Of a DNA stretch of 64,000 nt, positions 1-40,102 are shown piece by piece. Origin of the DNA: Octopus vulgaris (Eukaryota); the NCBI GenBank assembly GCA_951406725.2, contig OX597819.1, forward strand, positions 62,124,001 to 62,188,000, in the 5' to 3' direction. The notes beneath the pieces were generated by a model, which had not been told where the DNA came from, searched no databases, and saw nothing but the letters and a program-made list of their open reading frames with translations. The first letter of the stretch is position 1. Every line of letters begins with the position of its first letter. The position numbers and the translations under genes are program-made.

Positions 1-719
1 AGTCTACTTGACATTGAGTACTCTCTGTAACTTCAGTTTATTTGTGGTATTGCTGTGTCTTTGAGAAATTTGCTTCACAACCATATGGCTTTGAATCTGA
101 TAGATGACACGACCCCTTGGTCACGTGACTCCTTTATAGCCTCCGGTCAACCAATATCACTTGGAACTATATGGAAGCTTTTGTGTGTTTGTTTTTTTGT
201 CTTTATGTATCTTTGTGCTGGCACTACTTGTGCAGCAGTGACATTTGTCATCCCATCTACAAAACATTCCGCTTGACAGTTTGATATGCAAAGACCATTG
301 GAATAAAGTATCTTATTTGAAAACAAGTAATAGAATGGTATCTAATAATAGATGACTGCCTTGTGAACTCTCCTCTTGCACATAGCAGTATGGAGGAATC
401 AGATGTAAAAATGCTCAGGAGTCATTTGCATCACCCCAGGCATGTCAGTATGGTTAAGAAGTTAACTTTGCAGCCTTGTACAGATGTGTTCTAGTAGTAC
501 AACCACAGGTTGACCATTGATATCTATGTAATTAGAATTTGATCATTACAAACTGCGTCTGGTGTTTGTTTTTGACCTTAAGAAAAAGAGATTTATTGAA
601 ATGAGTGCAAGATTAGTATAAGTACTGAGATGTGTATGACCAAACTGTTGAAGAAAATGTCCCTAACTTCAGTTAAATGACTGACACCAGTAAAATATAT
701 ATTAAACAGAATATATTAA

Positions 720-940
720 CCCTTGAGCATTTAATCTGGCCATATCCAACCCAGATATTCTACCTGTTTTATGTTCAAACTGGCCAGCTCTGGCCTCTCC
801 CATCTACCCAATATTTGTCATTCTAAACATAAACAGTAACATCACTGAAATCTGAAAATTGCGAAATAATACATGATTAATTCAAAATAATGTGAATAAA
901 TAAGCTTTACATTTGACAGAATAATCTGAATGCTAAAGGG
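720..940. mobile_element. piggyBac-type MITE, family A
   Basis: TTAA|CCCTTGAGCAT ... ATGCTAAAGGG|TTAA; homologous (reversed) to 21851 and 26309 copies. Confidence 0.8.
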
Positions 941-1173
941 TTAAAATATATTAATCTGTATTTTTCTGCATACAAAGAAGTCAATAAAAAATAATTGGCT
1001 CTTTTTATTCTAGTTTTAAGCAAGCCAGTTGAAACCATGTTAGGGCATGCTTGTTTTTGTTTTATAGAGAAAAAATGCACATGACCTTTTATTTTATCAA
1101 ATTGTTGTCCCATCATAAATTTATTCAGCTTGCATTTTTAATATCCTGTCATTTTCAATTCTTTTCAATATAG

Positions 1174-1324
1174 GTTTAGCCGAATTAGCACATCGTGAAT
1201 ACCAAGCAGGAGATTATGATAGTGCTGAACAACACTGTATGCAACTATGGAGGCAGGAGTCAGACAACACTGGTGTATTATTACTCTTGTCTTCTATACA
1301 CTTCCAGTGTAGAAGATTAGAAAA
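1174..1324 (+). CDS. OGT: OGT coding exon 1 of 21 in window (mammalian exon 2 equivalent; TPR region)
   Basis: tag| (G)[49 protein letters not shown](K) |gtaagt; matches the OGT N-terminus; start exon not in window. Confidence 0.96.
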
Positions 1325-4300
1325 GTAAGTATATACTCTTAGAACTAGTTTAAACTTACACAAGGGTTTATGAGTACATACTGTATATAATCTGCAAGAG
1401 ATTAGTTTTCATGGTTGTTGCTTCAAGGCTAATGCTATATATAGTTGAATTCATTATTGCTAATATTCAAATATGAATGGGAAAGATAGTTATTGAAAAT
1501 GGTTGCTGTTGAAATGTCAATTTGCTCAGCAACTTGACATTTCTGTTTTAGAGTTGTTTCTAATTTTTTTTTCTTTTCCTGGGGGATGGCTAGCTAAAGT
1601 GCCACAAAATATTTTGTCGCCATTTCTATAAACTTATTTCAGATGAGTAATTGAAAACAATTATTTAGGCTGTTTGATTAATTTTCTTGTATGTATGTGT
1701 GTGTGTACACACACAGTATTCTCTTGACTATCGCAGGTGTTGTGCCCCCCCCCCCTGCAATTGGTGAAAATCTGCAAAGTAGAAACGGCTACTGTACTGT
1801 ATATTCTTATTATTTTTATAATTTGTATATATTTATTTTTTTATTATTGCAAAACACTACCATGGAGGAATCAATGAAAGCTTAAATAATAAACTGCAAT
1901 ATGACAAGGGATTACTCTATATAAAACTAGTAATAAAGCTAAGGTTTAATGATAGCATTATACAATGATATACAAATTGTCCAACCCATGCTAGCATGGA
2001 AAACGGACGATGATAATGATGAGCTAATTCTCTATTATATTCACTTAACTGTATCTTTTCCTTGTCCTTATAAGTATGGAAATAGAAGATAACATGGCCT
2101 AACAAGAATAGATGCATCATCATTTTTGTCTGCTTTTCCATGTTGTCATGGATTAGATAGGTTATCGTGGGCTGAGTCAGTTTCCACGGAGATTATTGGG
2201 GCCTTATTTTGCTTATATATTCCATTTTGGGGATGGTTTCTATAGTTAGATGTTTTTCATGTACTGGGCGGATTTTATCACAGCACCAGAAAAGTTTTTT
2301 TTTTCCCCCTTCTATGAGTAAATAATATTCTCCTCTATACAATATCTCCATTCAAGGCAACATGGTTGTGTGGATAAAGAGTGATGGGAAAGGGAATAAG
2401 GGTGAGAGGGTATGATGGGGGAAGTAGTGGTGTAGGTAAGGTGACTGAAGGAGTAATGGAAGAGGCAATGATTGACAGCTATATGTTGTTGGTAAGGAGA
2501 TTGAATAAAAAAGTACAAGTGTGATTGATATAAAGATAATATTGGAAGAGAGAGTTATGGAAATCAGAGAGGCTGAAGGTAGTGTTATATGTCTGCCATG
2601 AATAATGTATTAGGAAGTTACTTTGAGAGAGATGGATAACAATAATGGGAGTGTGACGATGTCAGTAATAAGTGATTTTAGAGGAAGTAACGCGAGTGTG
2701 ATGGGTAGCTATGAAGAGAGAGTAATAGATGTCAGTGACGGGAGGGCGAAAGTGATGGCTAGCGATAAAGAAGGGTGAATGATGGAAATGCATTTGAACA
2801 CAGATTCAATGCCATTTTGGCATAATACAATGGTAGAAAATAAATGAATGCTTTTTTTTTTAATTTTAAAATTAATGAAGAATTTCAGTGCTTTGTGAAA
2901 TAAGCATTTATATATGCACATACATGGCTGTATGATTAAGAAGATTACTTTCCAGCTATGTGGTTTTTGGTTCCATTCCACTGCACAGCATCTTGGACAA
3001 GTCATCATTGTTTAACATCTGCCTTCCATGCTGGCATGGGTAGGATGGTTTGACAGGAGCTGGCCAAGCAAAAGCCTGTACCATATTTCTTTACAGTTGG
3101 ATGCTCTTAACATCAACCACTCAGCAAGTTGACTTAGTGCTTTTTATGTGGCATGGGCGAGGTCAGTTTTGGCAAGGTTTTTACAGCTGGATGCTGTAAA
3201 TGCTGAGAGAGAGAGAGAGAGAGAGGGAGACTGCAGACATTGGCAAAAGGCAACATTTTTTGATAGAGGTCAAATCAATTTAAAGGACCTCAGTTCACAA
3301 CTGCCCAAGAGAGACAAAAAGCAAAGCTGCAGGATTGTAACAAAATTCTGAAAAGCATTTTCTCATGTTCTGCCATTGAAGCTATCCTCTTACATAATTT
3401 CTATTAATCAAGTGTTTAGTTTCAACTTTTGCTGGTCAAAAAAGAACAAATTCTAAAGGGATGGTTAGACACTAAAAAATATTGAGCAGAGGAATGAGAA
3501 AGGAGTTAGAGTTATAGAAGGGATGATGAAAAGACAAAACTTTAAGCTCTGAGTGGGAGTAGAATGGAGTTTACTAGTTGGGAGAAGAGATGGATCATAT
3601 ATATGTGGGAATTGCTACAGGCTGACTAAAGGCTTTTGAGAGGATTTTGTAGACAGAAACTGAAAGAAACCTGTTGAGTGTGTGGCTTGTGTGCAAGATT
3701 GTGTCTGTCTGTCTCTGTTGGAAGTTGTAAATGAGTGTCATTCATCTCCAGTGTTCTACAGAAACCTGTTTGCCAACAAGAAGGGCATTTGGCTGTAAAA
3801 AAATCTGCCTCCGTAAGCTCTCTCCAGCCCATGCAACCATGGCAAAATAGATGTTAAAACAATGATTATCTAAGCTGGTGTTTATAATACAATATAAAGT
3901 ATTTTTACAAATATCTATTATGGTGCTGTTGACTATTAATATATTATGCTAAAGAAATTTAATTTATATTAAACATTTCAATATAAGTGGTTTTAAGAGT
4001 TTGTATCAGAGAGCTAGGGTAGATTGGTTGTATGGACTGTGGTTTGTTGGTATTGAATGGGTAATCTTTTGAACAATTTCTTTTAGTTTCCATCCCATTT
4101 TGTGTGTGTGTATGTTTATTTCCTACCTCTATTTGACAACTGATGTTGGTTTGTTTACATTCTCATAACTTAGTGATTCAACGTACTGGAGTCAGTTTGT
4201 TTGACTAAACCCAAGGCAGTGCCCCAGCATGGGAATGGTCTAATGACTGAAACAAGTAAAAAAAAAAGATAAAATAGGCACTATTGCAAAAGGAAAGATA

Positions 4301-4384
4301 TAATGTTATAAAATAGCTTTTGTGTTTTTGTCTTTGAGTAAAGTACATCATCCAGCTAATTAAAGCTTTTGTTTTCCTTTGCAG

Positions 4385-4628
4385 ATCAGCTTATTTTAGT
4401 CAACTAGCTATAAAACAGAATCCAATGTTAGCTGAAGCATATTCAAATTTAGGCAATGTCTACAAAGAACGAGCTCAGTTGCAAGACGCTTTAGAAAATT
4501 ACCGCCATGCTGTTCGGTTAAAACCTGATTTCATTGATGGCTATATCAATCTAGCAGCTGCCTTGGTCGCCGCTGGAGACATGGAGCAAGCAGTGCAGGC
4601 GTACGTTACAGCATTACAGTATAATCCT
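4385..4628 (+). CDS. OGT: OGT exon (TPR)
   Basis: cag| [29 protein letters not shown]...ALQYNP |gtaagt; phase fits previous exon. Confidence 0.97.
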
Positions 4629-5041
4629 GTAAGTATATGCAGTTTTTTTTCTTTTTTCGTTTTTTATTAGCTTTCCTGCAACATCTATTTATCTCCTGTA
4701 TATAAGGTGTTGTGACTAGATTATTTACTGTTGTATAACAGTGTGGCTAAAAGAGGTGCAGGCATGACTGTGTGGTTAGGTTCACTTACCAAGCTTGTAA
4801 CTTTGGGTTCAGTCCTACCATGCATACACCTTGAGCAAGGACCAAATCCTTGGGTGTAGTTTTGAAAAAAGCTCAGGAGTATGTGTATATATATAGGCAC
4901 AGGAATGGCTGTGTGGTTTAAGATTTCCCAACCATATGGTTTCAGGCTCCATTTCACTGTGTAGTACCTTGGGCAAGTGTTTAGTATTATAACCCAGGTT
5001 GATCAGAACTTTGAGTGGGTTTGGCTGATGGAAACTGAATG

Positions 5042-5102
<61 letters not shown>

Positions 5103-5449
5103 TATATAATACAAGGTATGGGGGTTTAGTTCACAGGTGATCTAAACGATTAGGTACACTAGGTAAGTACTGTAATGGATTACTGGGGCTCCAAGGTTAT
5201 AGCTGAGATGGTAGTTATGGAACCATTGCAGATATTTTGTAAAAGCAAGTGACTCAAGGGCCTAGAGTTTAGTGTGTTGGCACTTATCAAACTGGTTACA
5301 AATTGAAGAGCTGTGAATTTATATATTTAAATCCACAGCTCTTAGTTCTGTAACTAGTTAGATACGCATCAACACACTAAACTCTTGGCCCTAGAGCTGC
5401 TTCTGCTAAATATTAAAAATATACATGTACTCATATTTTGAGGTGTGTA

Positions 5450-5774
5450 TCTCTCTATATATAAACGGCAAAATGTCTGTGTGTGTCCTTTATACAAATC
5501 CACAATTTTTCAGTTAGAGGGTGGTCAAGCACATCTTTACGTTTCCCCAGTCACCCCGCAAAGCCATTAAAAAAATCAATAGAAGTGACTTTTTTGTGAA
5601 TTTCCTATCCAAAACCCAATCAAAATGCCCGAAACTTGATACGCCAATTGAATGCCAGCTAGCTGTATGTGATTGATCAGAGATTTGGACAGTACTCGCG
5701 TGTATGTGTGCACGCACGCAGCTGTATATGCATGCACTAGCACTATGACCTGGCAACGCCGGGTCATAGTGCTA

Positions 5775-5775
<1 letters not shown>
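5450..5775 (+). mobile_element. Non-autonomous Helitron-like element
   Basis: A|TC start, subterminal GC-rich hairpin GACCTGGC-AAC-GCCGGGTC, CTAG|T end, no TSD. Confidence 0.65.
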
Positions 5776-5804
<29 letters not shown>

Positions 5805-5808
<4 letters not shown>

Positions 5809-6470
5809 TCATCATCATTTAGCGTCTGCTTTCCATGCTAGCATGGGTTGGACGGTTCAACTGGGGTCTGTGAAGCCAGAAGGCTGCATCAGGCCCAGTC
5901 TGATCTGGCAGTGTTTCTATGGCTGGATGCCCTTCCTAACGCCAACCACTCCGTGAGTGTAGTGGGTGCTTTTTATGTGCCAGACGGAGCTGGCAAACGG
6001 CCATGAACGGATGGTGCTTTTACATGCCACCGGCACGGGGGTCAGGCGAGGCTGGCAACAGACACGAACGGATGGTGCTTTTACGTGCCACTGGCACGGG
6101 GGCCAGGCGAGGCTGGCAACGGACACAAGCGGATGGTGCTTTTACGTGCCACCGGCACGGGGGCCAGGCAAGGCTGGCAATGGACACGAACGGATGGTGC
6201 TTTTTACGTGCCACCGGCACAAGGCCAGTCGGGGCGGCGCTGGCAACGGTCACAAACGGATGGTTCTCTTACGTGCCACCGGTACTGGTAACTCAGCTGC
6301 AATTTCCATTGATCGATTTCGATTCTGATCCTCACTTGCCTCAACAGGTCTTCACAAGTAGAGTTTTGTGTCCCAAAAAGGGAAGGTATGCATACGTAGG
6401 CTGGCTCCATCCCATGTAGAAGGCCACGGGTTATGGTCTCACTTCTTTTGCCGGGTCTTCTCGCGCACAG
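5805..6470 (-). mobile_element. Retroelement 3' end (RTE-like LINE/SINE tail) with internal 61-62 bp tandem repeats
   Basis: (GAT)n tail, shared AACCCATGCTAGCATGGAAAG terminal motif, about five imperfect repeat units at 5965-6290. Confidence 0.75.
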
Positions 6471-7059
6471 TATATATATACTTGTTTGAATTGCTTTGTC
6501 TTCACATTGCCTGATAGTTTGTAAATGTGTACCACCATCATCATATGAGCAGTGTCATTCATTTTCAATCGGCATAGACACTTGCTAGGCTATGGGGACA
6601 ATTATCTTGCTTGGAAACAGGTAGCATCTGCCAACTAGAACAGCACCTGACCATAGAAAATGTGCCTCAAAGAATTCCATCCTATGCTTGCAAGCATTAA
6701 AAAAATACCCTGATGGCATATGTATACAAATGCATCTGTTTACAATTGCACTTGTTTGTATGAAAGTCACATTGCTTGAATGGTAGTGTTGGCACTTCTC
6801 AATAAATTGTCTATTTTCTTTGTGCCTTGTATGCTGTGTAGATTGAGAAATCTCAAGAACAGTCGAAGGTTAGTATTAGGAAGGGTGTCATCTAATCCAT
6901 GCCAACATGGAGGAATGGACAAAACGGTTAAGCTAATTTTGAATATCAGTGTTACATAGTTAAATTTTTCAGTATGTATCCATGCACACAGATTTTAATA
7001 TTTTGCTGCTAATATTGTTTCTTGGATTTTAAAACCCTGTTTTGTTTTTATCATTACAG

Positions 7060-7128
7060 GATTTGTATTGTGTACGGAGTGACCTGGGTAACTTGCTCAA
7101 GGCATTGGGGCGATTGGATGAGGCAAAG
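7060..7128 (+). CDS. OGT: OGT exon (69 nt; mammalian exon 4 equivalent)
   Basis: cag| [23 protein letters not shown] |gtaaaa. Confidence 0.96.
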
Positions 7129-8302
7129 GTAAAATATGTACTTCCTGTGTCATGAAAATTTTACTCCACACCTATATTTTGTGTAAATAAATCTATATAT
7201 TACATATGTGTATATAGATATGTCTGAGTGCATATATATAAACATATATATATAAATATATTTATGTATTTATATATATGTGTGTGTGTACATATATGTA
7301 TGTATGTATGTCTGAGATTGACTGTCAATCTTTTCTTTTCCTTTGTAATATACAATATTGTAGATATGGGATCAATTTATCCATTTAACTGTCTCAAAGA
7401 TGTTAAACCATCCTTTGTCAAATCTATTTAATAAGTTTTTATCTTCTGTCAGAAGACTGCAGTGTGGTCATGTTGATTTTCCCGGGATTCCCTGTTTTTC
7501 TAGATGATGAGCTGCGGCTTGAACATATCTGGACATTTTGTTTCTTTTTAAAAATTCAAACAAAAAAATGAACACATTACTTATTTTATTATTTTTTTTG
7601 TTTGAATTTTTACCTGAAATTGCTTTCGATTTCCTTATCATCCTCATTTACTTTGATCAGTTAGACCCTCCAAATAAAAGCCAAATTAAAATTGTGTTTC
7701 ATAATTGTATATTTCACATTTGAAAAATGGAAATTTCCTTTAGAATTAGTACTTATTTCTACTTTTGTATTGCTAAGCAGATATGAATCCAATCTCAACA
7801 GATATTGATGGCAGGTATTCCAACTTGATAAAAATTAGCTCAGCTCGTAGTCATGTTTTATAAATAGAAACCCAATAAAGCATTTTATCATGCAATATAT
7901 AAAACTGTTTTCTCAAACTAATTTTTTTCTAAAATATGAGAATCCACGATAGTGTGAAAAACAGTTAATTGAAATTTCTGCTTGCTCTATTTATAACAGT
8001 TGCAGTTATAAATAGAGCATAGGTAACAGCTTAGGTATCAAATGTATTTTGTTAGAGAAGGCTTTTAGATGTAAAGCAAAATATTTCTTGATAATTTGCT
8101 TGTCAGCTATTGTATAGCTAATGAATTTAGAGGGAGAGCTAAACCTAGAAAGATTTGTAGAATAAAGGTTTCAAACCACTGTGTTCTTTACAAATGGAGA
8201 GGCATCCTTATCACTACATTTGAACAGGTCTACTTTGAACCAGCACTAGACCATAATCTTTTGATTAATCATTCTTGTTAAAGAAAATTAAATCATTTTT
8301 AA

Positions 8303-8499
8303 CCCCTTTGTTACCCTGTTTTTTTGAAACACTCATGCTTTGTTTCAATTAATTTTGGAAATAATGAATACGTTATTAAAATAACTTGGTCGTTATTAAA
8401 GCTGTTGTTTGGGACATAAATTAGTATGAAATTCTGATGGAAGGTTTTAGATTATTTTAAAACAATTTGTTTTATAAAGGCAGGTTGATATCTAAAGGG
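8303..8499. mobile_element. piggyBac-type MITE, second family
   Basis: TTAA|CCCCTTTGTTACC ... GATATCTAAAGGG|TTAA. Confidence 0.65.
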
Positions 8500-11400
8500 T
8501 TAAGTTTGTATGTGTATAGTGGGGAAAGCGGAAAACTGCATGTAGCTTATGTTATAGTTGAAACATCATGTAAGTGTTTGATGTGTGTGTGTGTGTCTAT
8601 ATATACACTCGCATGCATTATTAAACTAAGTTGATAGGCTTACATTAGTTTTATTTGAAATTTAATGATGATAAATCATCTAAAAATGATCAGGCTAACT
8701 GACTGTTGGTTTTTCAATAATTAATTAGCAGGTTAATCTGTTGATTCAGTAAGGGTTTTTTTTTTCATTTGCATGCTGAAATTTATACCTTGCATATTAA
8801 TTAGATTTAATATCTTATTTAAATGGGGCAACGAACCTGCTCTCTCTAATCCATATTTGGCTTGATCTAGCATTTTGTTTATGCTGTCATGTGGGGATAT
8901 ATATTTTATATACTAGTGTTTGAAATTTTGATCTTAGCCATGTAGAGAAGTAAATAAGATATTAACTTTGTTAGTTTAGCATTGAACAGCCATTTTGTAC
9001 TTTTGCTATGTTACCTTCTACCTCTGTTGACAAGTAAGGGAAACAGAAGTTCTCGTTCAGTGGTGCATTACCACTCGCATGAAATGAACTTGTAACTTCA
9101 GCAAATGTTTTATTAATTTTATAATTGAAAACCCTTTATATTTTTCCCTTAAAGTGGAATTGTTAAAATGATCCATTGCATTGAAACATAAAGTATTTCT
9201 TTTATGATCTTGTAAAACAGAATATTCTCTTATGAAATACACCTGAATTTTTTTTTCTTTGTCATTTTCTTCCTATATTTGATTTCCCCTTTTGAAAGAT
9301 CCTTGCTTCTCCAAGAAATGTTCTGTTGATTAATTTTTTTCCAAACTTTTCTTTGAGATACAGGCTAACCTTTTCCCCTCCCTTTCTACCTAAATCTTCA
9401 CGCGTTTTGTCCTGAGGGATAGGGGAAAAATACCACAAAACAATCTAGACTTTCCCAGGAGAATCAATGACCACTCTGCAACCTTAAAATTTTGAGATTC
9501 ACAGGAAGGAAGTTCAGGCTGGTCGTGGTTCCCTCACATACTGGTTCTAAACTTAAATTCAAAATAAAATCTTTTCCAAATTTCTGAATGTTTTAAAACT
9601 TCAGCTGCAATCATATTATGTATATATTTTTGCCTGAAGTTTTTCTGATTTAAGTGACCAACTTTTGTTTGATAAAGCCTTTTGTCTTTAATTTAGAATC
9701 TTCTACCATAAAAATGTTTTTGTATCATAATTGCTTTATCAAAATAAAAAACAACAACAAAACCCCCCAAATTCCAATAAAATTTTCAAGCTTTTAGTAT
9801 CCAGTATGTATGTGCACTCTGAGCCAGCCTTAACTTCCAATCATTGCTATCATATGTTATGAAAGCTGGAACCCCTGCCAGTTAACCCCAACACCATTTA
9901 AAAGATTATACTGCAGGATGCTGAATGAAGCCAACTACTACTACTATTACTCAATGGAGTGTGAACTGTTTGCATTGCAGCACTTGCTGTTTAATATTGA
10001 GGGAGAAAGCAAGGCTTGAACTAGTCTTGTTAATACTGCCACAATGTCAGTCAGGATCCAATTGCTCCCACTGTTATTTATATTAGGACACAATTTATAA
10101 ATTTAGTTGTCACATGTCTTTAATTTAATGTCAATGCTTTCTAAAGAAAAGAGAAAAGGACTTGGCAGCGCCTCTTAAAATTCATCTAAGAAACTGCATG
10201 GGAAAAAAAAAATATATATTTATATAAGAAAAAAAGACTTGGAAATAAATATTTTCCTTAGAATTAAAAAGAAAAAATATTGCAATTGTAATGTCTAGTC
10301 TTCTGTTGTCATTACATCACATTGCTTAGTTCCTGTGATTTATATTGTTCTTGTAGTATAATGACAATTATCTGTAGAGGCATATCTACTTCTCTTTTCT
10401 GTATATGGTTCCCATAGTGCATTTTTTTACACTCTTTGTACTCTTTGCCAATTTATCTATTTTACTGTTACTACTTATTACCACTACTACTACTATTGCT
10501 ACTTTTTTAACTACAACTAGTAAATGTGCGCGCTTTTAAGTTCTTGTTATGTCGTCAATCTGTAAGCTATTTTGTGTCTAAAATGAAAAACCAAAAGTAC
10601 GAAAGTATATGGAACACATGTGCTAAACATTTTAAAACTTTTTTAAAGCTTAGAATTTTTAGAAATACACATTTTCCTTTTTTTTTTCCCTCCTTTTTTT
10701 CCGTCTGTCTCTTGAGTCGGTATATAATACAGCAATACCATCCTGGCTACATTGTGCAGTATATTTACATTGACAAAGGATTGTTTAACTGCTTTAGGGA
10801 TAGATAAGATACTTTATTGTTTTGTAAAAAAATTAAGTTCAAATCACTACAGGACAATGTTTATTGAATGTGTAAGACTTCCAGTTACAAATAATCAAAT
10901 GATGCAACATTTTGTTTATCCTTTTGAATAAATTTTTGATTTCATATTCTTTTTAAAAATTGGTCAGAACAGTGGAGATGGCTGAAGCAGCAGACTGCCA
11001 AGTTGATGCTTTGATGTAATCAGTTTGGTACCTCACTGTTCTAAGTTCAAATCCCAATTGGACTGACTTTTTTTTTGCATTCTTTGAGATGAAATTGACC
11101 CTTACAATTTATTGGTGTACTTAATTCAACAAATTTTTCCCATCCCAAAAATGTGCCTGATTCCTGAATGAATTCTGATTATGACAACTGTAGGAGGTAC
11201 CAATAATGATATTGTTAAATGTTTACTTTACTATTATATTAGTCTGCTATTTTGAAAGGTAATCATAATGAAAATTTAAATCTTAAAAATTGAATACTTA
11301 TTTAATTTATAAATTTGAAATATTTTATATCAGTAAAATATACTTTATGTATTTATATATGGAAAAAACAAATTAGTTTGAGTGGGATACAAATTTCAGT

Positions 11401-11842
11401 ATGGAGCCAGCCTACATATGCATACTTTCCCTTCTTGGGACACAAAACTCTACTTGTGAAAACCTGTTGAGGCAAGTGAGGATCAGAATCGAAATCGATC
11501 AATGGAAATTGCAGACGTGTTACCAGTGCCGGTGGCATGTGAGAGAACCTTCCGTTTCGCAACCGTTGCCAGCGCCGCCCCGACTGGCCTTGTGCTGGTG
11601 GCACGTAAAAAGCACCATCCGTTCGTGGCCGTTTGCCAGCTCTGTCTGGCACCTGTGCGGGTGGCACGTAAAAAGCACCCATACACTCACGGAGTGGTTG
11701 GCGTTAGGAAGGGCATCCAGCCGTATAAACACTGCCAGATTTGACTGGGCCTGATGAAGCCATCTGACTTCACAGACCCCAGTAGAACCGTCCAACCCAT
11801 GCTAGCATGGAAAATGGACGCTAAACGATGATGATGATGATA
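11401..11842 (+). mobile_element. Same retroelement family, opposite orientation to 5805-6470
   Basis: Near-identical reverse complement of 5805-6410 with fewer repeat units; (GAT)n tail. Confidence 0.78.
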
Positions 11843-13790
11843 GCAATCATGCAGGCACATGTCCAATTTATATAAGAATATTCCACATTCTACAGACATC
11901 TCTTTGTGGAAAAACTGTTTTGATTTTAGCTGTAAAGCAGTTTAGTTTGATTTGAGTTACAAGATGGACCTGCATATTTAGAGCTCTACTAAAATAAATT
12001 TAGTGAGTAAAATCATAGGACAAATGCCACTCTTAAGTTTTGATGATTCTTTCGGTTAACTTGTTGTTTAATGGTCTTTTAAGAATTGTTCCAATTGTCT
12101 TCATATATGTAGGATTTATATTGCACCAATGTGGGTCTGTTAAAGGTCATCATTTAATGCTTGTCATGTTATATTTCCATTTACAACCTTATTACATAAG
12201 ATGTGAATCAGCTGCTTACTTGGTGTCCGAAGCAGATGTTTTAATGCAGTTGTAGATTTGTCCTAATTTTATGTCAACTTTCCATTCTGGGATGGGTTCC
12301 ATGTCTCATGTCCAAGTCAGTGATTATTTGGAGATACTTCTCCCTCAAAGACAAGTTGAAAGACCATTTCATTTTTGGTTGCAGCTGGATGCCCTTCATT
12401 CATTGACCACTTTACCATGTCTACCAGATGTATTGTGGGACTCACACTAATCTTCATTACTCTGTAATTTGTTTGTTCACTCAAGATAACAGGTGTTGTG
12501 AAGGTAACTACAAGAGTGATGGCAAACGGTGAACCAGGCTGGGTCAGTGAAAGTTGCAGGAGTGTGATGTTAAGAGAGACGAGGTAGTAGAAGAGGAAAG
12601 TATGATGGATAGAGGTGGGCAATGACGAGTGATGGGTATCAATAGCAAATGGCTTCTGGGGAGAGAGAGTGAGTGATGATTGGTAGTGCAGAAAGGGTGT
12701 TCTGGGGTTGTATCAGGTACTGCCAGAAAAAGAGTAAATAGTCTAGTAATTTAGATGAAGCTGATGTAAACTTGGCATGGAAATATTGGTAGAGACCTGT
12801 GTATGTGTAACTAACACACACACACACACACACACACTATATATATATATATGCATACAGGTAGCTTATATCTTCTAACCACCATTGTTTTTGACATTTC
12901 ACCTTGCTTGCACAAGTGGACAGACCTTCTCTGGCACTGCAGGTTGCCAAGCATGTTAGTTCTTTGTCATCTACATGGATCTAACCATCAGTCTTCATAT
13001 TATCCCATATTGTGTTTTTCTATAGGTTCCATCCACTTTGAGTGCCCTACATTTCTTCGTACAACTTTCGTCTTAATACATTGTATATCCACACCAGCAT
13101 CTGTCATACTCTACATCTGATATTTTTAATATCTAGTTTGCCACACAACTCATTTGCACTCTGTTCATGCATAACACATCTGTCAGAGCATGCTTGCTTC
13201 AATTCTTTTTAGTCTTCCCTTTAAGTTTTCTGCTTTAAGAGCTCGCATCAGTGTGAGTACACAAGTGTCATAAAAATTTGCCTTTGACTCTGAAAAAGAT
13301 GCCCTTTGTAACTCCCACAGTCAATAGCTCCTTGAACTTTCCAACTTGTTTAGCCCTGGCTACTACACTTTTGCACTTACCTTCATTGTTAATTTGGTCA
13401 CCAAAATTACAGACTACTTCTAGAGAGCCTTCTGGGACTTTCAGAATCTGTTTCCTGAGTGCGCTGTTCCTGAAAATCTACTTGATAATATTTTATAGAA
13501 TTTGAGCATTTTGAGCAAACCTATATGAAAACAAATATCAAAGCTGCTTTTCATATCAAAAATACTGTTTTGGATAAAGTTAAAAGTTTAAAGCTCTGTC
13601 TTTGGAATTAATGTTGAGTTGCATCAATCACTTTCCAAAAAGCATACAAGAGCACTAAAACTACATGCCAGAAGTTAATTTTAAAATATTTTTTAATTGA
13701 TCAGTACAAGATTCTATAGCAACTAAATGTACAAGTCAATAAAATACATTTTATAAGTATAATCACCAAATATTTTGTGATAGCTGTTAA

Positions 13791-14864
13791 CCCTTTCGTT
13801 ACCAAGCCGCCCGAAAAAAATTTTGGTTAATGTGACCAAACTGCCCAAACCCGTCCGTATTTACCTATTCATATTTAAATGAGAATATCAGAGCAAATCT
13901 CTTTAGTACATTCGTGAAAACATGTGATTATACTTCGTAAACAGTTCATCTACAGTTTTGTACATTGATCGAAGTGTAATTTTAATTCTGTGAATTTTGG
14001 GAGATTTTTTTCCGAAATTTGTTCCTATTGTGTTTTCAAAATTTGTAATTCTGACAAAAAATGGATACAAATTTCATTATATCAAGTGGCGAGTCAGAAT
14101 TCGAAGGCTTTTCTACTGAACCTTGATAAATCTAACTCTATGACTGAAAAAAAAAGCACGAGGTATTTGATAATGAATCCGATGTTTCATTTTCCGAAAG
14201 TGAAAACAGTGAATCCGAGAGCTCCGACAGCGATAAAGAAAATGAATTGGCACCTGAATGGAGTGAAAATTTAAAAACTGTTTCTTTCGGTGATTTTTCT
14301 GAAGAAACTGGACCAAGCCACAGTCTTTCCCAGGAGAGTAAAGCCTTAGACTATTTCTATTTACTTTTTCGAATAAGCCTATTTGAAATCATTACGGCGG
14401 AAACGAACCATTACGCTAAATGTAAACAAAGCGAAAGAAAGGATAGTTTGTGGTTTCCCACAACCTTAAATGAAATTAAGGCCTATTTTGCCATAAATAT
14501 TATTATGGGTATCAGAAAGTTACCCAGAATAACAAATTCTATAGTAAAATTTTGTTGTATACCCAATTGAATATTAGCTAATAACCCATTTTCTATAGCG
14601 ATGTTTGAACAAAAATTTTAATAATTTTATATTTTGTTGAATTTACCTGTATCTACCTGCAATTAGTCACTTTGTGACAAAAATTATAGTATAGAATTGG
14701 TTGAGAACATTTCATTAAATTATCTTCCAAAAATCACATTAATATATTAATAAATAAAAAAGTTATAGTTGTTTAATGAAACCAGACTAAATTTATGATT
14801 ATGTTAGAAATTAATTGAAACACATAAGGGGTGTATTTTGGTCATAAATATAGTAACGAAAGGG
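13791..14864 (+). mobile_element. Internally deleted piggyBac (PGBD4-like) transposon
   Basis: TTAA|CCCTTTCGTTAC ... GTAACGAAAGGG|CTAA termini; residual peptide LFEIITAETNHYA...WFPTTLNEIKAYFAINIIMGIRKLP typical of piggyBac transposase N-terminal part. Confidence 0.88.
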
Positions 14865-15640
14865 CTAATAGACATTTCTTTTGTGTAATTCTTTTCCAGG
14901 GAAGGGTGCGTCACCTTTTGGTCATGAGGTATAGATTGTGATTTGGGCTGAAGTGGAAAAAAATTAGCCCAAATTTGTTAACAATTTAGTGCTGAATAAT
15001 ATTCAAAGGGCAATGGTTAGGATATAGTAGCCTCTACCTATTTTGAAATGGATTTGAACGCAATCCAAGAACTGTAATTCATTTAATTTCACTTGTCTGT
15101 ATTAATACTGACAACCTATTTGATTTCCACATGTTATAAATTGTTCATAATAGATTTTCCTTAATGGCTGGTGTGTATCTCTTGACCATGGTCCTGCCCC
15201 CACCCCGTGCTTAACAGCTATTTTGTAAACCTCAAAAATTGAATATTTTATTTTGTTCATGTAATATATAAATCCATTGACTTATTAATCTGCAATTGAT
15301 GTAATGGTTGTTTGCTCAATGCTCTAATCTGCCAATATTTCACACACACACACACACTAGTAGGATCGATTTAGTTCATAATTGAATCACTTCTGTGGAG
15401 CAATGCTTTACTAACAAAGGATTCATAAAAGGCACTCTTTTATATTTTTCCCTCATAAAAGTTGACAAATTTTATTGTCCTTAATAATTTTAAACTGGAA
15501 GTTACCCATTCAATAAAATTCCTGTGGATTGATTTTAATCATTTTTCATATTTTTAAAAACTTGACTGCTGATTATTCACTGTTGTCAACATTCTGTACC
15601 ACTGAACACTAATGATCGTCTTTTTTGATTTCTACACAAG

Positions 15641-15896
15641 CAATGCAGGTGTGCTCACTGCTATCAAATAGTGTGCCCGCCTGGTCAGTCAGTCACTCGT
15701 GTCTCCTGGGTCAGTCACTAGCTGTGGGTCGGTCAGCGGTTGGTCATCTTCTACCTACTCCCGGCCCAGCCTGGCCAGGGCAGGCTGCTGCAGCAGCACC
15801 AGGACCAAAGGACAGACTCCTCCTAGTTGACTACTACTACAGAGCTATGAATGAATACATTGGTATTAGTAGACATCTCTGAGGTGTGAGCTGAAG
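15641..15896 (+). promoter_or_regulatory. Candidate decoy/poison exon in the large OGT intron
   Basis: Branch-like CACTAAT (15607), pyrimidine tract, AG at 15640 and 15648, GC-rich body, clustered GTnnGT hexamers, in-frame stop, donor-like sites at 15884-15914. Confidence 0.55.
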
Positions 15897-17240
15897 GTAT
15901 TGTATACTTAAATGTGAGTCAATTTCAGTTGTAGTCCCTGGCTATTTGTCTCCTATTTCTGCAGTGTAATGACATCTCTTTTACTGATTCATGATGGTCA
16001 AGTGTGATTTGGGGCAGTTTGGATTGCAAATTTCACCACCTAATGACATATATATATTTTCCTTTGGTTATAGTTTTTGCTGCTGGCTTTGAAACTGTTT
16101 TCCTCTTCATTGTTATAAAGGACACAGCTTAATTTGACTCCACATTCAAAATTGTTGATGGAAGTAATATTTGTTTTAATTTCAGTTATCTTAGATGATG
16201 AGAAAGCATTTAGTTCATATAACAGTTGAAATTTCTCTTGACTAATAATAGAATATTCTTATCACTGAATTAAAAAGAAATACTAATTTAAGAACCGACA
16301 GGATTAACTAATTTTAGCGTACCCTCTCCTTTAACTTTTACAAAATGCTGGTCTATAAAAATACACTCTTTAGATGTTGTAGGCTAATAAAACAAATGTC
16401 TATATAATTTAGTAAATCGATCTTTCTTATTGCTTCTTAAAGTGTCTTTAGTCAAAACCATTCACTTGATTTAATTATGTGCAGTTCACTTCTTGGAATT
16501 GATTTTGAATGCTGAAAGCACCCTTGGTATAAGAACTTCATTTGGCAAAACATGCTGCAAGGGCAATAACCTGTTCGCACCATGGTTGTTAAGGTTTTTT
16601 TTAATTCAGTTTTCTTTGGCACACTGCAGTTTATTTGCTGACTCTTAGTTCTCTTGTATTTAGCCCCTTTTTAGTAATAAATATTGAAGTCTGTTGTTAC
16701 CTTTGTAAATGTTTTCCAAATTTTTTTTTAAATAGATATTTGTATTTGATTTTGATTTGTTTAAATTGTGTAACTTATATGGAATTTGAAATTCTAATTG
16801 ATATAGTTGTGAACTATTTGATTAAACATAGCTTTTTTGGTAAGTACAGCTAACTGAGAATATTCATTAAATCTAGTTAATTTAGCATGTTTTGTTTTGA
16901 AGTCATTTTTGATTTCGTATCTGTTCTTGAAAGATGGGGACAAAAAACGTACTTCTGTGTTTTAACCATTTAACACCTCAAGTGGTGTTAGTAGAATATA
17001 TTGAAGGGTTTTTTGTTTTAATTTTTTTTTGTTGAAAGAATTATTACAATTTACAAATTTGCCCTGGTAAGAATCATTGTGGCAAGACTTCATTTTTCAA
17101 AATCAGTTTAGTTAAATGAGTATTTTATTTTTGTTTCAACTTACTCTATATTTAGTATACTTTTTCTTTATACAGTGTAATAGTTCTAGTTCTTCACACA
17201 ATCAATTTTTTGAATAATATGCTGTATGTGTGTGTATATA

Positions 17241-17296
<56 letters not shown>

Positions 17297-19803
17297 TTTT
17301 CTAGTTTCTGAAGTAGGTGTAAGAAGTAATTATAGAAGGAGCTGACTGAAGAAAATCATTGTTCAAGAATACTCTGTCTAGTGTTAGGACTGAATCTTGC
17401 TCAGAAAATCTGCATCTTATATGCCATCATCACTCCTTTAGTTATGGTAATTTTAGTAATGAAATATATTTGAAGTATTTGTATTTTATATCAACTTAAT
17501 ATGTATGCAAGAGACTATAGGATGCTGCATGGTAAAATTGTTTTGGAGAAGTTATACATTGTCACATGACTCATTGGGTATCATTGAATGTTTTACACTT
17601 GGTCTGTCAATGAAGATTCACTGCTGTTGTTTCCTATTGGATTCCTAGAAGCCTACAATTGCACAATATTCTGCCTCTTCAGTGTGTAGTAGTAAACCAT
17701 GAAGAGTTACAGATCTATACCAGTGACAGGATGTCAAACAAGATACATTGAAATCAAAATTGGAACAGTATAATTTATTTTATTCAATATAAGTTTTTAA
17801 AAAAAATGCAGTTTCATATAAGATACATTTGGAATGCTGCTTAGTTTCAAATTATTTTAAATTACCTGAAATATAATTTTGATGATGATGATGATCACTT
17901 ATATAGTATGAAGATGCTTTCCCGAGCTTGTATAAGTATTTTGCTCAAAAGTTACGACAAGGAAATTAGTTAAAAGTTACTACATGTATGAACCAGTATT
18001 TTTGCATTTTTATGGAATGGAATTTCTTCAAAATGTAATCAGTGTGTTCACATATTAAAAATTTTCCATCAAAAATTAGTTAATAAGGGATGACAGAAAT
18101 AGCATATTTTCTTTTACGCATTATTTACAGTAGAGGATTCCTGTTTCATGTTTTTTTTATTGTATGAGGAATTTGTCCAGGAATATGTATTAAAGTTTTT
18201 TTTTTTTTATATTTAAGTAAAAGGGTGAGAATTTATGTCTGCTTTCTACTGAGATTATTAGTGATAGAATATTTCTTGTTGGTTTCCTTGAATGGTGATT
18301 TTGTTTTCTTTTCCTCTCTCTCTCTTTCTATCCTACTGTCCCATGTAACAGCTTTACCTCTTTATGCCATTATACTGCAGTTGAAAGGATATTGATATGC
18401 CCTAAAATACAAGAAAAATAGAAAACAAAAACACCAGCATCAAATAACTTAATTTGTATTATTAAAAGTGACTACTATAATACTGATTTTTTAAGGTTCT
18501 TTTCATATTTTTTCATACAAGCTTTTTTTTATAAAGTCATTTTTCATAACATCACTAATTTCTCCAAAATTATTGCTAATTTTTCAGAATAATTGTTTTT
18601 CTATCTTTTTTCATTTTTCTTCTATTAGATTTTTTTTTACATTTTTATTTCGTTTCTTTACAATTTTTTTCTTTGTCTATTTCATTTTTATATTTCTATA
18701 TCAGTATTTTTGTGTGTATGTATTTTATGCAGTTACTTTTTTATTCCCTTAGCGCGCGAAGCATTGCGCGGACGCACTTGATCGCAGGCGAATAGATAAT
18801 TTTTTTTAGATGTCAGATTTCTTCTCCTGTATTTTAAAGTTTCCTCATCTTGTCATGGATGACTTGGATGTCTTCAATTTATCCAAAATTTCTTGACTGA
18901 TAAATTCTAAAAGTACATTTTCATTCACTTTGGGCTATATAAATAACACCTTATTTTAAGTGTTTTATTTTGCAAAATTTGTAATAATCAGTGAAGGGAG
19001 TGTCAGTTTTTCATTGTTAATGAAAAAATAAAAAGAAAACAAGCAAAAGTTTTCATTCGAATAATAACTAGAGTTAGAGAAATACTTCAAAACGTCATGT
19101 GTGTGTGGCTACCCATGATGAGGCAGCTTGTTGGGAGAAGAGAAGTGAAACCTAATTATTTTATTTCACCAAGCAGAACGGCTTTCTTCTCCTATTATTA
19201 CAAGAGAAGAGAAATGACATCTTTATTTTTTTAAAAAATTTTTTTATATACATATATATTTAATTCCATATATGTATGTATATAAAATGCGTGAATGTGT
19301 GTATGCATATATATGTGTGTATATATGCATATATATATATATATATATATATAATTTTTGTTTTACTTTGGTGTTATCAGCACAAGTCATCACTAATGTA
19401 TGGTTTATAGAACCAAAGTTTCTTTTAGCAGCTAACTTTTCAAATATATAAATAACTTAAATTTTAGATTTATTAAAATGTATTCACCAATATTTAATTT
19501 TGCTTTTTTTCCCCCTAAAATAATTTCATTTTTTTCTTTTGCTAAATCTCTAGATGATGCATTTATACAGATGTTAATTTGTTAGGTTGCCTAAGAAAAC
19601 ATGGTTCTAAAATCCTATATGCATGGTTAGTGCTTAACACAGTATTATTGCGCGCGTTTAGTTCATAGTGCAAAACTTCTACTGGAGCGCAGGCGACTTG
19701 AGCGCTTTGCTTTTGGATGTTCTTTTTAACTTTCTTTGTCTTTTGCCAACCTGTACAAACATCATTTATTTTGTTTATAACTGTAAATTTGCCTACACTT
19801 TAG

Positions 19804-19992
<189 letters not shown>

Positions 19993-27530: not shown

Positions 27531-27839
<309 letters not shown>

Positions 27840-28903: not shown

Positions 28904-29814
28904 GTGTGTGTGAGAGAGAATGAGTGAATGAAAATATATATAAATACACACAAATTTTAGATATTGATTTTGTTTATATTATTTTTCTTATATTTTTTAG
29001 TAAATTTATTTTACTTTTGTTTTGAAAATAGCTATATTACTTGCATTATTGGGGTTTGTTTAAAAATGTAAGTGCTTGTATAGAATTGGGTCTAAGAAAT
29101 GTTCATTATTAAGGTTCCAATTATTCATAAAAATAAATCTGCTTCATTTATACTTGACAGTTAGTCTTAAATTAATTAATATGGAAAGTATGAATTTCTG
29201 AACACAAATTTATTTGGATGTAATTCACAAATAATTCTAAATACCTTCTAGAATAAATATTTTAAGATTTTTTTTTTCTACTTGGCCTCATGTTTCATAA
29301 CAGTCTGTTATTCAACCAGTGCTTTTTATGGTAACTGTAAGCAATTTGGTTAAAAACATACAAGTTCATTTAGTGGTTACTGATTTCCCTGAATTGTTGA
29401 ATTGTAGCTTATGTGGTATTTTTATCGAAAATTGGTATAATTTAAACAGACTGAGCATATGTTCCCTCATTTGATTAAATTTGTATTTAAAGATACTTTT
29501 ACCTAGCTGAATATTTCTCTGTTCATTTATGTTGGGTTCTCTAAATATTCATTTTGATATGAAGATAACTTTCTGTTAGATGGTAGCTGTAATTGTAGTT
29601 AAAAAAAATATGAAATGAAGACATGAGGCCTTTCAGCAAGTACGACTATTATATCACTTGTCTCATCTCCCAGAGCTGTATGCTTTTTGTCAAGTTTCTT
29701 CTAGTTGAAAAATTACTAGGCTAAATCACTTTTGTTTCAAACTTGTTAATTTCTCATTTGTGTCAGTTATGAAATATATTTAATCCATTGATATAACTAC
29801 TAATTCGCCATTTA

Positions 29815-30878
29815 ACTAGATCAGAAAGGTGGTTTTTTATGTCCCCCAAAGAATTAAAATTTTTACTATTGAGATTATTTTGCAAGGTCCTGAATAAATG
29901 AAAATCTGAAGGAGCAATGTCTGGTGAATATGGTGGGTAGGGTGACACATCCCAGCCAAACTGCAACAATTTTTGCCAAATAAATGTGAGGTCTGGCATT
30001 ATCCTGATAAAAAACAACACCTTTCCTGTTTGCCATTTCTGGCTGTTTTTCTTGAATTGCTACCTTTAAATTGTCCAGTTGCCAGCTGTACTTCTCAGAA
30101 TTAATTGACTGGTTACTTGGCAGAAGCTCATAGTACAGGATTCCTTTCCAATCCCACCAGATGCAGAGCTTAACTTTTTTAAGATGAAGACCTGTTTTGG
30201 GGGTAGCTAAAGGTGGCTCATGTCGCTTATCCCAGAAACTTTTTCACTGAACATTGTTGTAAATGATCTATTTCTCATCACCTGTCACAATTTGCTTTAA
30301 AAAAGGGTGCATTTTCATTGTGTTTATACAGCAAATCACAGATAGAAATGCGATCCAAAAGATTCTTTTCCCTCAGATCATGTGGTACCCAAGCTTTACT
30401 AAGTGTTCATGGATGGTGGATTTTGATAAATTTAGTGTGTCTGCCAATTCCCACATTGTGTAATGTGGGTTATTCTCAATCAATGTGTGTGTGGGCAGGG
30501 GTCTGTCTGAGCGTTCTTCATCAATAAGGTTACAATCACCAACTCTAAAGTTAGTGAACCACTTCTATACAGTTCTGTCAGCTAAAACACCTTCACCGTA
30601 CTCAGCACATATCTTCTTTGTTGTTTGTAAAGCCTTTTTGCCTTTACGGTAATAAGAAGGCCCCTAGTGTCTAAAATGCACCTTATAATCTTCCATTTCC
30701 ATAGGGATGCAAAATCGACACGAATTAAGTAATTTTCACCTTTGTTTCTCAAGAGCTAGTTTGAAGTGTGCGCTAACCAGAAATGTAAGCACATTATATG
30801 TGTCGATAAATCTGATGTGTTCTAACATGTCAGAACATGAACAACTAAAGATCGGCATGAACTATCCGGATGACCCAA
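29815..30878 (-). mobile_element. Degenerate mariner transposon, 3' end truncated
   Basis: 5' end TA|TTGGGTCATCCGGATAG on - strand; relic peptide FGWDVSPYPPYSPDIAPSDFHLFRTLQN (YSPDLAP motif); left boundary approximate. Confidence 0.88.
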
Positions 30879-39161: not shown

Positions 39162-40102
39162 GTATGCATATTTTAGTTTTGCTTTTATTTGTTTAATATA
39201 TTTGGCACTTAGATATTTTACTTTTTGTGAGATAAAAAACATTGCTAATTGTATATTATTGTTATAAGCAGATATTTTCTATAACCCTAGGCCAACTAAA
39301 GCCTTGTTAGTGGATTTGGTAGATGGGGACTGAAAGAAGCCCATTGCATATGCAAGTGTGTGTTTGTGAACTCTTGCCACCATATTGTGAGATTGTTCTT
39401 TTCCAATTCTCCATGAAAAGCATGTCTGGACTTGGGGGAAATATTACATTGCTTGGAAATAGAAGACTGGTGGCAAGAAGGGCATGCAGCTGTTGAAAAT
39501 ATGCCTCAGCAAATTCTCTCAGACCCATGCAAGCATGGAAAGGTGGAGATTAGGTGCTGATGTGTTAATCTTATGAGTGCTTAGAGGAACCTACATTTAT
39601 GTTAATCAGTGGATGACAAATTCTGAAATTTTTTCACTTATTCTTCCCCAGTTTTTTTCTTTTCCTTTTTTTGTAATACTTAAAAAATATGTTAAAACAG
39701 TTTTGTGTGAAGTTGATTTACAATAGAATGCTACACTCTCAGTTGGAAGATTATTAGGTTTATAGCTAAGACATTGAAATAAGTTTAGGTGACTCTGCTA
39801 AGTAACGGGATCATTGCTGTAATCAACCTCTGGATTAATTAAGCTCTACCAAGGTTACTAGTTCCTGGCATATTGCATGGAGATTTAGTCTGCAGAAGCA
39901 TCCAGTGATTCTAATCTGTTATAGGCCAAATAATATAAACTTCTGGCAAAATATTGAGGTGGAGGAAAGGGTTTCACAAATGAGAATTTCAAACTTTTTG
40001 TTGGGGGTTGTTTAATTTTAAAAGTACTTCTGTTGTATTTTTCGTGTGTGGATGTGGGTGCTTGTTCATTTAACTTATCGTTTTCCTTATATCCACTCTC
40101 AG

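What the first reader, a model, noticed from the sequence alone, without database searches (positions are those of the whole stretch)
18590..18810. CpG-rich hairpin directly after a long U-rich tract and AG, ending in a GC-type donor-like site
Seen: about 160 nt of very U-rich sequence ends in TTCCCTTAG (AG 18751-18752). Next is CGCGCGA-AGCA-TTGCGCG (18753-18770), a 7-bp stem (one G-U) with a 4-nt loop, then GACGCACTTGATCGCAG|GCGAAT. Eight CpGs fall within 40 nt of a CpG-poor gene. In frame with the upstream exon it reads RAKHCADALDRRRIDNFF*; as a 35-nt exon ending at CAG|GC it would frameshift. Inference: a selected cis-element (structured cryptic acceptor or poison microexon).
Basis: partly seen in the sequence, partly recalled or inferred. 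Interest (0 to 1): 0.72.

Follow-up and report, generated by a model that had tools for sequence, protein, structure and literature searches.

The report
GCGC signal in octopus OGT intron
This GC-rich patch lies in the octopus O-GlcNAc transferase intron that matches the self-regulating, often unspliced intron of vertebrates, it is one copy of a GCGC signature enriched in that same intron across distant invertebrates, and it likely helps hold the intron back from splicing, whereas the intron's stop-codon mini-exon, shared with cuttlefish, lies about 3 kb upstream.

Summary
The site lies in Octopus OGT intron 4, between human-numbered residues 177 and 178, the position of the vertebrate detained intron. 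The 40-mer aligns to no other animal's intron, but GCGC ranks first of 256 4-mers for enrichment in this intron over other OGT introns (21 of 24 groups; 17 of 20 lineages). It peaks 50-200 nt before exon 5, where octopus has a second cluster sharing a 9-mer with this one. Invertebrate RNA-like contigs retain the intron or splice cryptically inside it. A separate cassette at 15641 is spliced to exon 4 in a cuttlefish-type assembly, and its 26-residue stop-ending peptide is identical in octopus. The hairpin probably forms but is no stronger than shuffles, the GC donor is weak, and use of AG 18752 is untested. Verdict: likely a splicing-repressing module of an old OGT intron-4 switch, not a 35-nt poison microexon. 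The scan noted the GCGC signature and a mini-exon before in two arthropods; the cephalopod case is new here.

The parts
7060..7128 (+). OGT exon 4 (69 nt, ends in phase 0; human residues 155-177)
7129..19803 (+). OGT intron 4 (12,675 nt), positional counterpart of the vertebrate detained intron
   Evidence: PMC5588854
15641..15913 (+). Coleoid-conserved poison/decoy cassette. Acceptors precede 15641 and 15649; donor-like GTs at 15684, 15710, 15732, 15884, 15914; stop after 26 codons from 15641. The 3' end is inferred from the cuttlefish gene model.
   Evidence: P0014, P0179
18555..18580 (+). Two branch-point-like YTRAY motifs just before the U-rich tract (pattern match only)
18591..18750 (+). 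U-rich tract (64% T), the most T-rich 160 nt of the window; holds candidate acceptors at AG 18627-28 and 18731-32
18751..18752 (+). Candidate decoy or alternative acceptor AG, 1,051 nt before exon 5; use not shown
18752..18793 (+). Upstream GCGC/GCG cluster (the finding): 3 GCGC, 8 CpG, 9 GpC; predicted 7-bp hairpin 18753-18770; CGCAGGCGA at 18783-18791 with a weak GC-type donor at 18788
18807..18809 (+). In-frame stop if 18753 were joined to exon 4
19650..19705 (+). Downstream GCGC cluster (4 GCGC; second CGCAGGCGA at 19688-19696), 100-155 nt before exon 5, at the position where GCGC peaks in other animals
19804..19920 (+). OGT exon 5 (human residues 178-216)

Best explanation
The patch is one of two GCGC clusters in the 3' kilobase of Octopus OGT intron 4, the intron that matches the vertebrate detained intron, and it likely acts in the pre-mRNA as part of a splicing silencer that holds this intron back, probably by binding a GCG-recognising protein beside a decoy-like acceptor. 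Shown: position of the intron, the clusters, their cross-animal enrichment, retention or cryptic splicing of this intron in RNA-like contigs of other invertebrates, and a coleoid-conserved stop-codon cassette at 15641. Inferred: the U-rich tract with its AGs would draw early spliceosome parts and compete with the true acceptor at 19804. The GCGC clusters would stall both sites. Transcripts would then stay intron-retained in the nucleus or be spliced to stop-containing forms (exon 4 to 15641; perhaps exon 4 to 18629, 18733 or 18753) and be degraded. By analogy with mammals, high O-GlcNAc would favour these routes and so lower OGT. Lark/RBM4 is a candidate reader (its GCG-rich motif is recalled, not from a call).
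For: Position: exons map to human OGT 155-177 and 178-216. GCGC density is higher in intron 4 than in other introns of the same locus in 21 of 24 groups, rank 1 of 256 4-mers, and in 17 of 20 after merging relatives (p 0.003). Against dinucleotide shuffles: 226 vs 108.5 in intron 4 (31 of 35 groups above, 3 below) but 98 vs 126 in control introns. It is a context effect, not a CpG island: CpG o/e is 0.76 vs 0.79 while GCGC takes 2.3 times the share of CpGs. Peak 8.6-12.6 per kb at 50-200 nt before exon 5 vs 0.5-1.5 in controls. Modest sense-strand bias (GCG vs CGC, odds ratio 1.38, p 0.002). A motif learned with the window left out ranks 18752 first in the 44.6-kb gene body. In one clade of 8 loci the motif survives amid indels with 0 of 4 pairs covarying. 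Of 12 transcript-like contigs among 66 loci, 2 keep the whole intron, 4 keep its 3' end, 2 carry cryptic inserts, 3 are fully spliced and 1 is uninformative. P0179 (163 of 163 identical to cuttlefish OGT, 153 of 163 to octopus) runs from exon 4 into 26 residues identical to window 15641-15718. 11 RNA-like runs from 4 studies hold 74-99% of the words of 18400-19950.
Against: No cephalopod orthologue of 18591-18793 could be examined, so conservation of this copy is untested; blastn found no alignable counterpart in the other animals' introns. No junction evidence: no contig covered 18090-18917 in 4 runs. None of 482 proteins held has the 18753 peptide after exon 4, but none is a short octopus-type protein, so the test has little power. 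The U-tract-then-GCGC arrangement is not seen in 28 other lineages (highest upstream T 0.50 vs 0.61). The conserved positional peak matches the downstream cluster (19650-19705), not this one. GCGC density is lower in intron 4 in 3 of 24 groups and absent from L033, L018 and L049. The learned motif is GC-rich, so its top rank partly restates why the site was picked. If the hairpin forms, the GCGC letters are paired and less available to a single-strand binder. The runs' RNA status is a guess and no control intron was laid. O-GlcNAc responsiveness is untested.
Confidence: 0.58

Rival explanations
1. The function is structural: the self-complementary GCGC runs fold into a short hairpin just after the AG and tune use of the 18753 acceptor.
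For: Stem probability 0.87-0.96 for the inner pairs in contexts up to 1.26 kb, with the AG left unpaired. The acceptor scores within the range of authentic ones (3.2; authentic -1.1 to 9.3; rank 15 of 627). A gastropod-like contig (L044) joins exon 4 to a non-GT sequence 756 nt before exon 5, the product such a site would give. GCGC-NN-GCGC occurs 7 times in intron 4 and never in controls.
Against: Energy is ordinary for the composition. No covariation in the one alignable clade (downstream cluster only). No long-range pairing to the second cluster (131 of 300 shuffles as good). The two octopus clusters share a direct repeat, not an inverted one.
Confidence: 0.15
2. A DNA-level element: an unmethylated transcription-factor site or internal promoter/enhancer in intron 4, for example for a short transcript starting before exon 5.
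For: GCGC is palindromic and most flanking 5-mers are nearly strand-symmetric. Five transcript-like contigs begin inside the intron's 3' part, and ORFs of 840-864 aa that start at or near exon 5 occur in several clusters. A GCGC-AT-GCGC dyad occurs twice in L017 (its likeness to NRF1 sites is recalled).
Against: No general CpG rise in the intron. Modest sense-strand bias. The peak is fixed to the 3' splice site. Contigs starting in the intron are equally explained by fragmented retained-intron assemblies.
Confidence: 0.12
3. This copy is neutral: a chance GC-rich patch next to a low-complexity U-rich run, inside an intron whose real control elements are the 15641 cassette and the 19650 cluster.
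For: No conservation data for this copy. The U-rich tract includes a degenerate 21-nt tandem array and has no counterpart before GCGC clusters in other lineages.
Against: 8 CpG vs at most 5 in 200 shuffles. Shares a 9-mer with the downstream cluster (expected 0.02 in the window; 9-mer chosen after seeing it). Single copy in the genome by two searches. Second clusters 690-1,030 nt before exon 5 occur in three other lineages (not tested statistically).
Confidence: 0.1
4. A 35-nt poison microexon 18753-18787 with a GC-type donor is spliced between exons 4 and 5, shifts the frame and stops after 15 codons.
For: The geometry works. CAG|GC ranks 8 of 370 GC sites in the intron. Poison cassettes occur in this intron in other animals (L045).
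Against: Donor score 2.7 is below the weakest authentic donor (3.6) even when the GC itself is not penalised. The same 9-mer recurs at 19688 with no acceptor before it. The cassette with splicing evidence is at 15641.
Confidence: 0.05

Closest known systems
Vertebrate OGT intron 4: detained intron with intronic splicing silencer and decoy/poison exon (PMC5588854, PMC6097662, PMC7261177, PMC7373989, PMC12017769; passages read)
   Same: Same intron position. An internal stop-containing cassette with two close acceptors and several weak donors (vertebrate 143-153 nt; octopus 15641-15913). Retained and cryptically spliced forms appear in RNA-like contigs of other animals.
   Different: The published silencer is traced only to jawless fish, and Drosophila is said to lack one (PMC5588854). 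Here the intron is 12.7 kb and conservation between phyla is a dispersed GCGC signature, not alignable sequence. No GCGC motif was found described for OGT (search, listing only). O-GlcNAc response is unknown.
Decoy exons of long retained introns, e.g. SF3B1, ARGLU1, SNRNP70 (PMC6097662, PMC7373989; passages)
   Same: Long pyrimidine tract, several candidate AGs and only weak donors downstream, in an intron over 1 kb.
   Different: Decoys are defined by junction reads, U2AF binding and conservation; none is shown for 18753.
Conserved stem-loops with concealed branch sites before poison exons, e.g. SF3B3 (PMC11162794; abstract)
   Same: A predicted stem next to a candidate cryptic acceptor.
   Different: Here the stem follows the AG and hides neither the AG nor the branch-point-like motifs; no conservation of pairing was found.
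Lark/RBM4-linked intron retention in Drosophila (PMC6966827; passages)
   Same: A protein whose motif is enriched in retained introns; its motif is recalled as GCG-rich.
   Different: No binding evidence here; the passages read do not spell out the motif.

Membership tests
OGT intron-4 detention system (vertebrate type) | Intron lies between the exons ending at residue 177 and starting at 178 | tested here: met
   Bird and fish short proteins P0258, P0185, P0197 also leave the coding frame right after this exon. The number '4' assumes one exon upstream of the window.
OGT intron-4 detention system (vertebrate type) | Intron is retained in otherwise spliced transcripts | tested here: inconclusive
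   Seen in contigs of other invertebrates (6 of 12 transcript-like). In Octopus, RNA-like runs hold the intron's 3' part but no control intron was laid.
OGT intron-4 detention system (vertebrate type) | Conserved internal cassette with a premature stop and multiple weak splice sites | tested here: met
   Met by 15641-15913, not by the finding's 18753 site.
OGT intron-4 detention system (vertebrate type) | Splicing responds to O-GlcNAc level; silencer necessary for retention | not testable with these tools
   Needs inhibitor and reporter experiments.
OGT intron-4 detention system (vertebrate type) | Sequence homology to the vertebrate silencer | not tested
   No vertebrate intron 4 was in hand beyond 151 nt of L008. 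The supplement search found no decoy sequence and one file was not searched.
Decoy exon (for 18753) | Junction reads use the cryptic acceptor | tested here: inconclusive
   No contig covered the site; no short octopus-type protein among 482 held.
Decoy exon (for 18753) | Acceptor of authentic strength | tested here: met
   Score 3.2, within the authentic range; rank 15 of 627 (model from 20 acceptors, one of them misplaced).
Decoy exon (for 18753) | U2AF binding and splice-site conservation in relatives | not testable with these tools
   No CLIP data and no related genome held.
GC-AG poison microexon | Near-perfect donor consensus around the GC | tested here: not met
   2.7 vs at least 3.6 for 19 authentic donors; the need for a strong consensus at GC donors is recalled.
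Stem-loop concealing a branch site or acceptor (SF3B3 type) | Branch site or AG paired inside the stem; pairing conserved | tested here: not met
   AG unpaired 0.67-0.91; branch-point-like motifs lie 170-195 nt upstream; 0 of 4 pairs covary in the alignable clade.

The most novel reading that the evidence does not exclude
OGT feedback through intron 4 is an ancestral bilaterian switch whose conserved code is not an alignable element but dispersed GCGC clusters read by one old RNA-binding protein, combined with lineage-specific poison exons. The octopus 18753 module is a second decoy acceptor gated by such a cluster, and the same code would name the still unknown silencer-binding factor in mammals.
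Probability: 0.3. Interest if true: 0.8.

Novelty: new variant of a known kind. Interest (0 to 1): 0.57.

Why it matters
OGT is the single enzyme for O-GlcNAc, and its intron-4 feedback is described only for vertebrates; the factor that recognises the silencer is not settled in the papers read. A poison exon kept letter for letter at peptide level between octopus and cuttlefish, plus a short motif enriched in the same intron in arthropod, mollusc and deuterostome lineages, would push the switch back to early bilaterians. It also gives a concrete, mutable sequence (GCGC clusters) to test in reporters, flies or human cells.

Tried and rejected
Hairpin as a selected structure: no better than shuffles; no covariation; no pairing between the two clusters. 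CpG island: CpG o/e is equal in intron 4 and controls. Muscleblind-type YGCY as the common signal: NGCN contexts other than TGCG and CGCG are not enriched overall, although YGCY is raised in the last 150 nt. Repeat or mobile element: one match in the genome for the 131-mer and for the 17-mer (these searches skip common words). Known RNA family: 24 Rfam matches in the intron, all below gathering score, on microsatellites, none at the site. Alignable homology in other animals: 14 weak AT-rich blastn hits, none at the site. The 18-residue peptide was too short for a protein search; indirect searches (each listing only the best 120 of 297 and 173 hits) showed no such tail. Tree: 44 loci with too little coding sequence were left out, so most GCGC-bearing loci are unplaced. 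Literature: searches showed no paper on an invertebrate OGT intron-4 decoy or a GCGC motif; PMC11765297 reports intron retention in Drosophila sxc without naming the intron in the passages read. The library lacks most subscription papers.

Full report
Setting. The window holds an animal OGT gene on the + strand. Its exons match the cluster of Octopus OGT proteins best and group with O. sinensis beside cuttlefish in a tree. Exon 4 is 7060-7128 and exon 5 is 19804-19920. They match human OGT residues 155-177 and 178-216. The finding lies 1.05 kb before the end of the 12,675-nt intron between them. [quoted passage not shown] The silencer overlaps a 143-153-nt decoy/poison exon with alternative 3' and 5' sites (PMC6097662, PMC7261177, PMC7373989, PMC12017769; passages). 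PMC5588854 traces it to jawless fish and says Drosophila lacks such an element.

Observation. Every coordinate is right. The CpG cluster is the densest of the window and exceeds all 200 intron shuffles (8 vs at most 5). The preceding 160 nt are the most T-rich of the window. The hairpin is predicted to form (inner pairs 0.87-0.96), but its energy is what the composition gives (27 of 500 for the 18-mer). The acceptor is plausible but not unique: rank 15 of 627 AGs, with a better one before 18629 (rank 5). The GC donor scores 2.7, below all 19 authentic donors (small training set, boundaries picked automatically, one acceptor misplaced). The stretch is single-copy by two genome searches and matches no Rfam family. 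A second cluster lies at 19650-19705. Seven of the 17 GCGC of the gene body fall in these two clusters. CGCAGGCGA occurs once in each and nowhere else in the window (expected 0.02; chosen after the fact).

Other animals. I used 69, dropped 9 that were spliced, held almost no intron or were doubtful matches, and 1 with under 140 nt, leaving 59 plus the window in 40 groups. Nothing aligns to the finding. Yet GCGC is the top 4-mer of 256 for excess in intron 4 over other introns of the same contig: 21 of the 24 groups that had controls, and 17 of 20 after merging relatives. Controls include unfinished introns at contig ends and may hold some non-intron sequence. Against dinucleotide shuffles GCGC is doubled in intron 4 (226 vs 108.5; 31 of 35 groups above) and depleted in controls (98 vs 126). 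It peaks 50-200 nt before exon 5. CpG as such is not raised. Strand bias is modest (odds ratio 1.38). A motif learned from 28 lineages without the window ranks 18752 first and 19650 second or third in the gene body, which partly restates their GC content. In one clade of 8 loci the downstream cluster is kept amid indels without covariation. The 24 loci that could be placed fall among arthropods, deuterostomes and lophotrochozoans; 44 could not be placed. Against: 3 of 24 groups go the other way, three lack GCGC altogether, and no other lineage puts a long U-tract before a cluster.

The intron is regulated-looking in invertebrates. Of 66 loci with mappable coding sequence, 12 look like spliced transcripts. 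Three are fully spliced at exons 4-5, two keep all of intron 4 (L032, L040; their sister L052 is spliced), four keep its 3' end, one is uninformative, L044 (sister to Elysia) has a 756-nt insert that does not start with GT, and L045 has a 145-nt frameshifting insert. L038 leaves the intron at a cryptic GT 1,271 nt before exon 5. Intron-poor genes or pre-mRNA cannot be excluded for single contigs. Among 118 short OGT proteins that reach the end of exon 4, 62 read on into the intron (these include genomic contigs), 40 continue with another sequence, 12 continue normally and 4 end there.

The real poison exon. A cuttlefish gene model (P0014) has 20 extra residues after exon 4. The window encodes them exactly in two pieces, 15641-15683 and 15897-15913. 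A Logan-derived protein (P0179, on 2 contigs; 163 of 163 identical to cuttlefish, 153 of 163 to octopus) runs from exon 4 into 26 residues and a stop, identical to window 15641-15718. So exon 4 is spliced to this cassette in a cuttlefish-type assembly, and the cassette is conserved in octopus. It has two acceptors 8 nt apart and five donor-like GTs, like the vertebrate decoy. Splicing of it in octopus itself was not observed.

Octopus RNA. Eleven RNA-like runs of four studies hold 74-99% of the words of 18400-19950 (RNA status is the tool's guess). Laying four runs on 17330-19240 gave two intronic contigs on either side of the site and none over it, so use of 18753 or 18788 is untested.

Mechanism and verdict. 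Most likely (0.58) the cluster is a sequence signal of an intron-4 silencer that works with a decoy-like acceptor region, the second cluster and the 15641 cassette to divert OGT transcripts into retention or decay. Reader protein, O-GlcNAc response and the role of this particular copy are inferred. Rivals: hairpin-gated acceptor (0.15), DNA-level element (0.12), neutral copy (0.10), 35-nt GC-donor microexon (0.05). It works like the vertebrate system; membership is met for position and cassette, open for retention in octopus and for feedback. I reached the GCGC result before consulting earlier notes; two notes on arthropod genomes report the same signature or a mini-exon, none for this place. 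Eight paper searches showed no description for invertebrates. The figures and one supplementary file of PMC6097662 that may show the human decoy sequence could not be read. Other papers seen: PMC6966827, PMC11765297, PMC12894984, PMC11623933 (passages), PMC11162794 (abstract).

Noticed in passing
window 15641-15913: Coleoid-conserved poison/decoy cassette in OGT intron 4. The cuttlefish model joins two sub-pieces (43 + 17 nt) in frame, which would insert 20 cysteine-rich residues into the TPR region; this may be a real isoform or a modelling artefact. An ATG at 15643 opens a 79-codon frame across it.
   Followed up: partly
window 19650-19705: Second GCGC cluster at the cross-animal peak position, 100-155 nt before exon 5; probably the better-conserved element.
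   Followed up: partly
window 10526-10533: An isolated GCGCGC in the 5' half of intron 4 that scores high with the learned motif.
   Followed up: no
window 27710-27722: Octopus and cuttlefish OGT models differ by about 3 residues at the end of this exon, suggesting alternative donors; P0127 also lacks a block of about 60 residues between the exons at 39164 and 41184.
   Followed up: no
window 5989-6282 and 11483-11750: A 61-nt tandem array in intron 3 and a similar GC-rich unit in intron 4; likely a dispersed octopus repeat and the source of other CpG peaks.
   Followed up: no
window 14113-14570 and 29763-30243: Reading frames that resemble DNA-transposase fragments (piggyBac-like and mariner-like; likeness recalled, not searched).
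   Followed up: no
L006, L033, L037, L039, L053: last 200 nt of intron 4: This lineage has little GCGC but a dense run of TGCT/TGCC before exon 5, suggesting a different reader (Muscleblind-like motif, recalled).
   Followed up: partly
exon-5 acceptors of L006, L008, L012, L018-L025, L029, L031, L042, L046, L047 and others: Many animals end intron 4 in a weak AAG; octopus has TAG.
   Followed up: no
proteins P0304, P0305, P0359, P0360; P0188, P0198, P0202, P0205; P0183, P0195, P0293: Recurrent non-GT tails after exon 4 shared within groups of mollusc-like, mosquito-like and crustacean-like proteins point to lineage-specific conserved poison exons in this intron.
   Followed up: no
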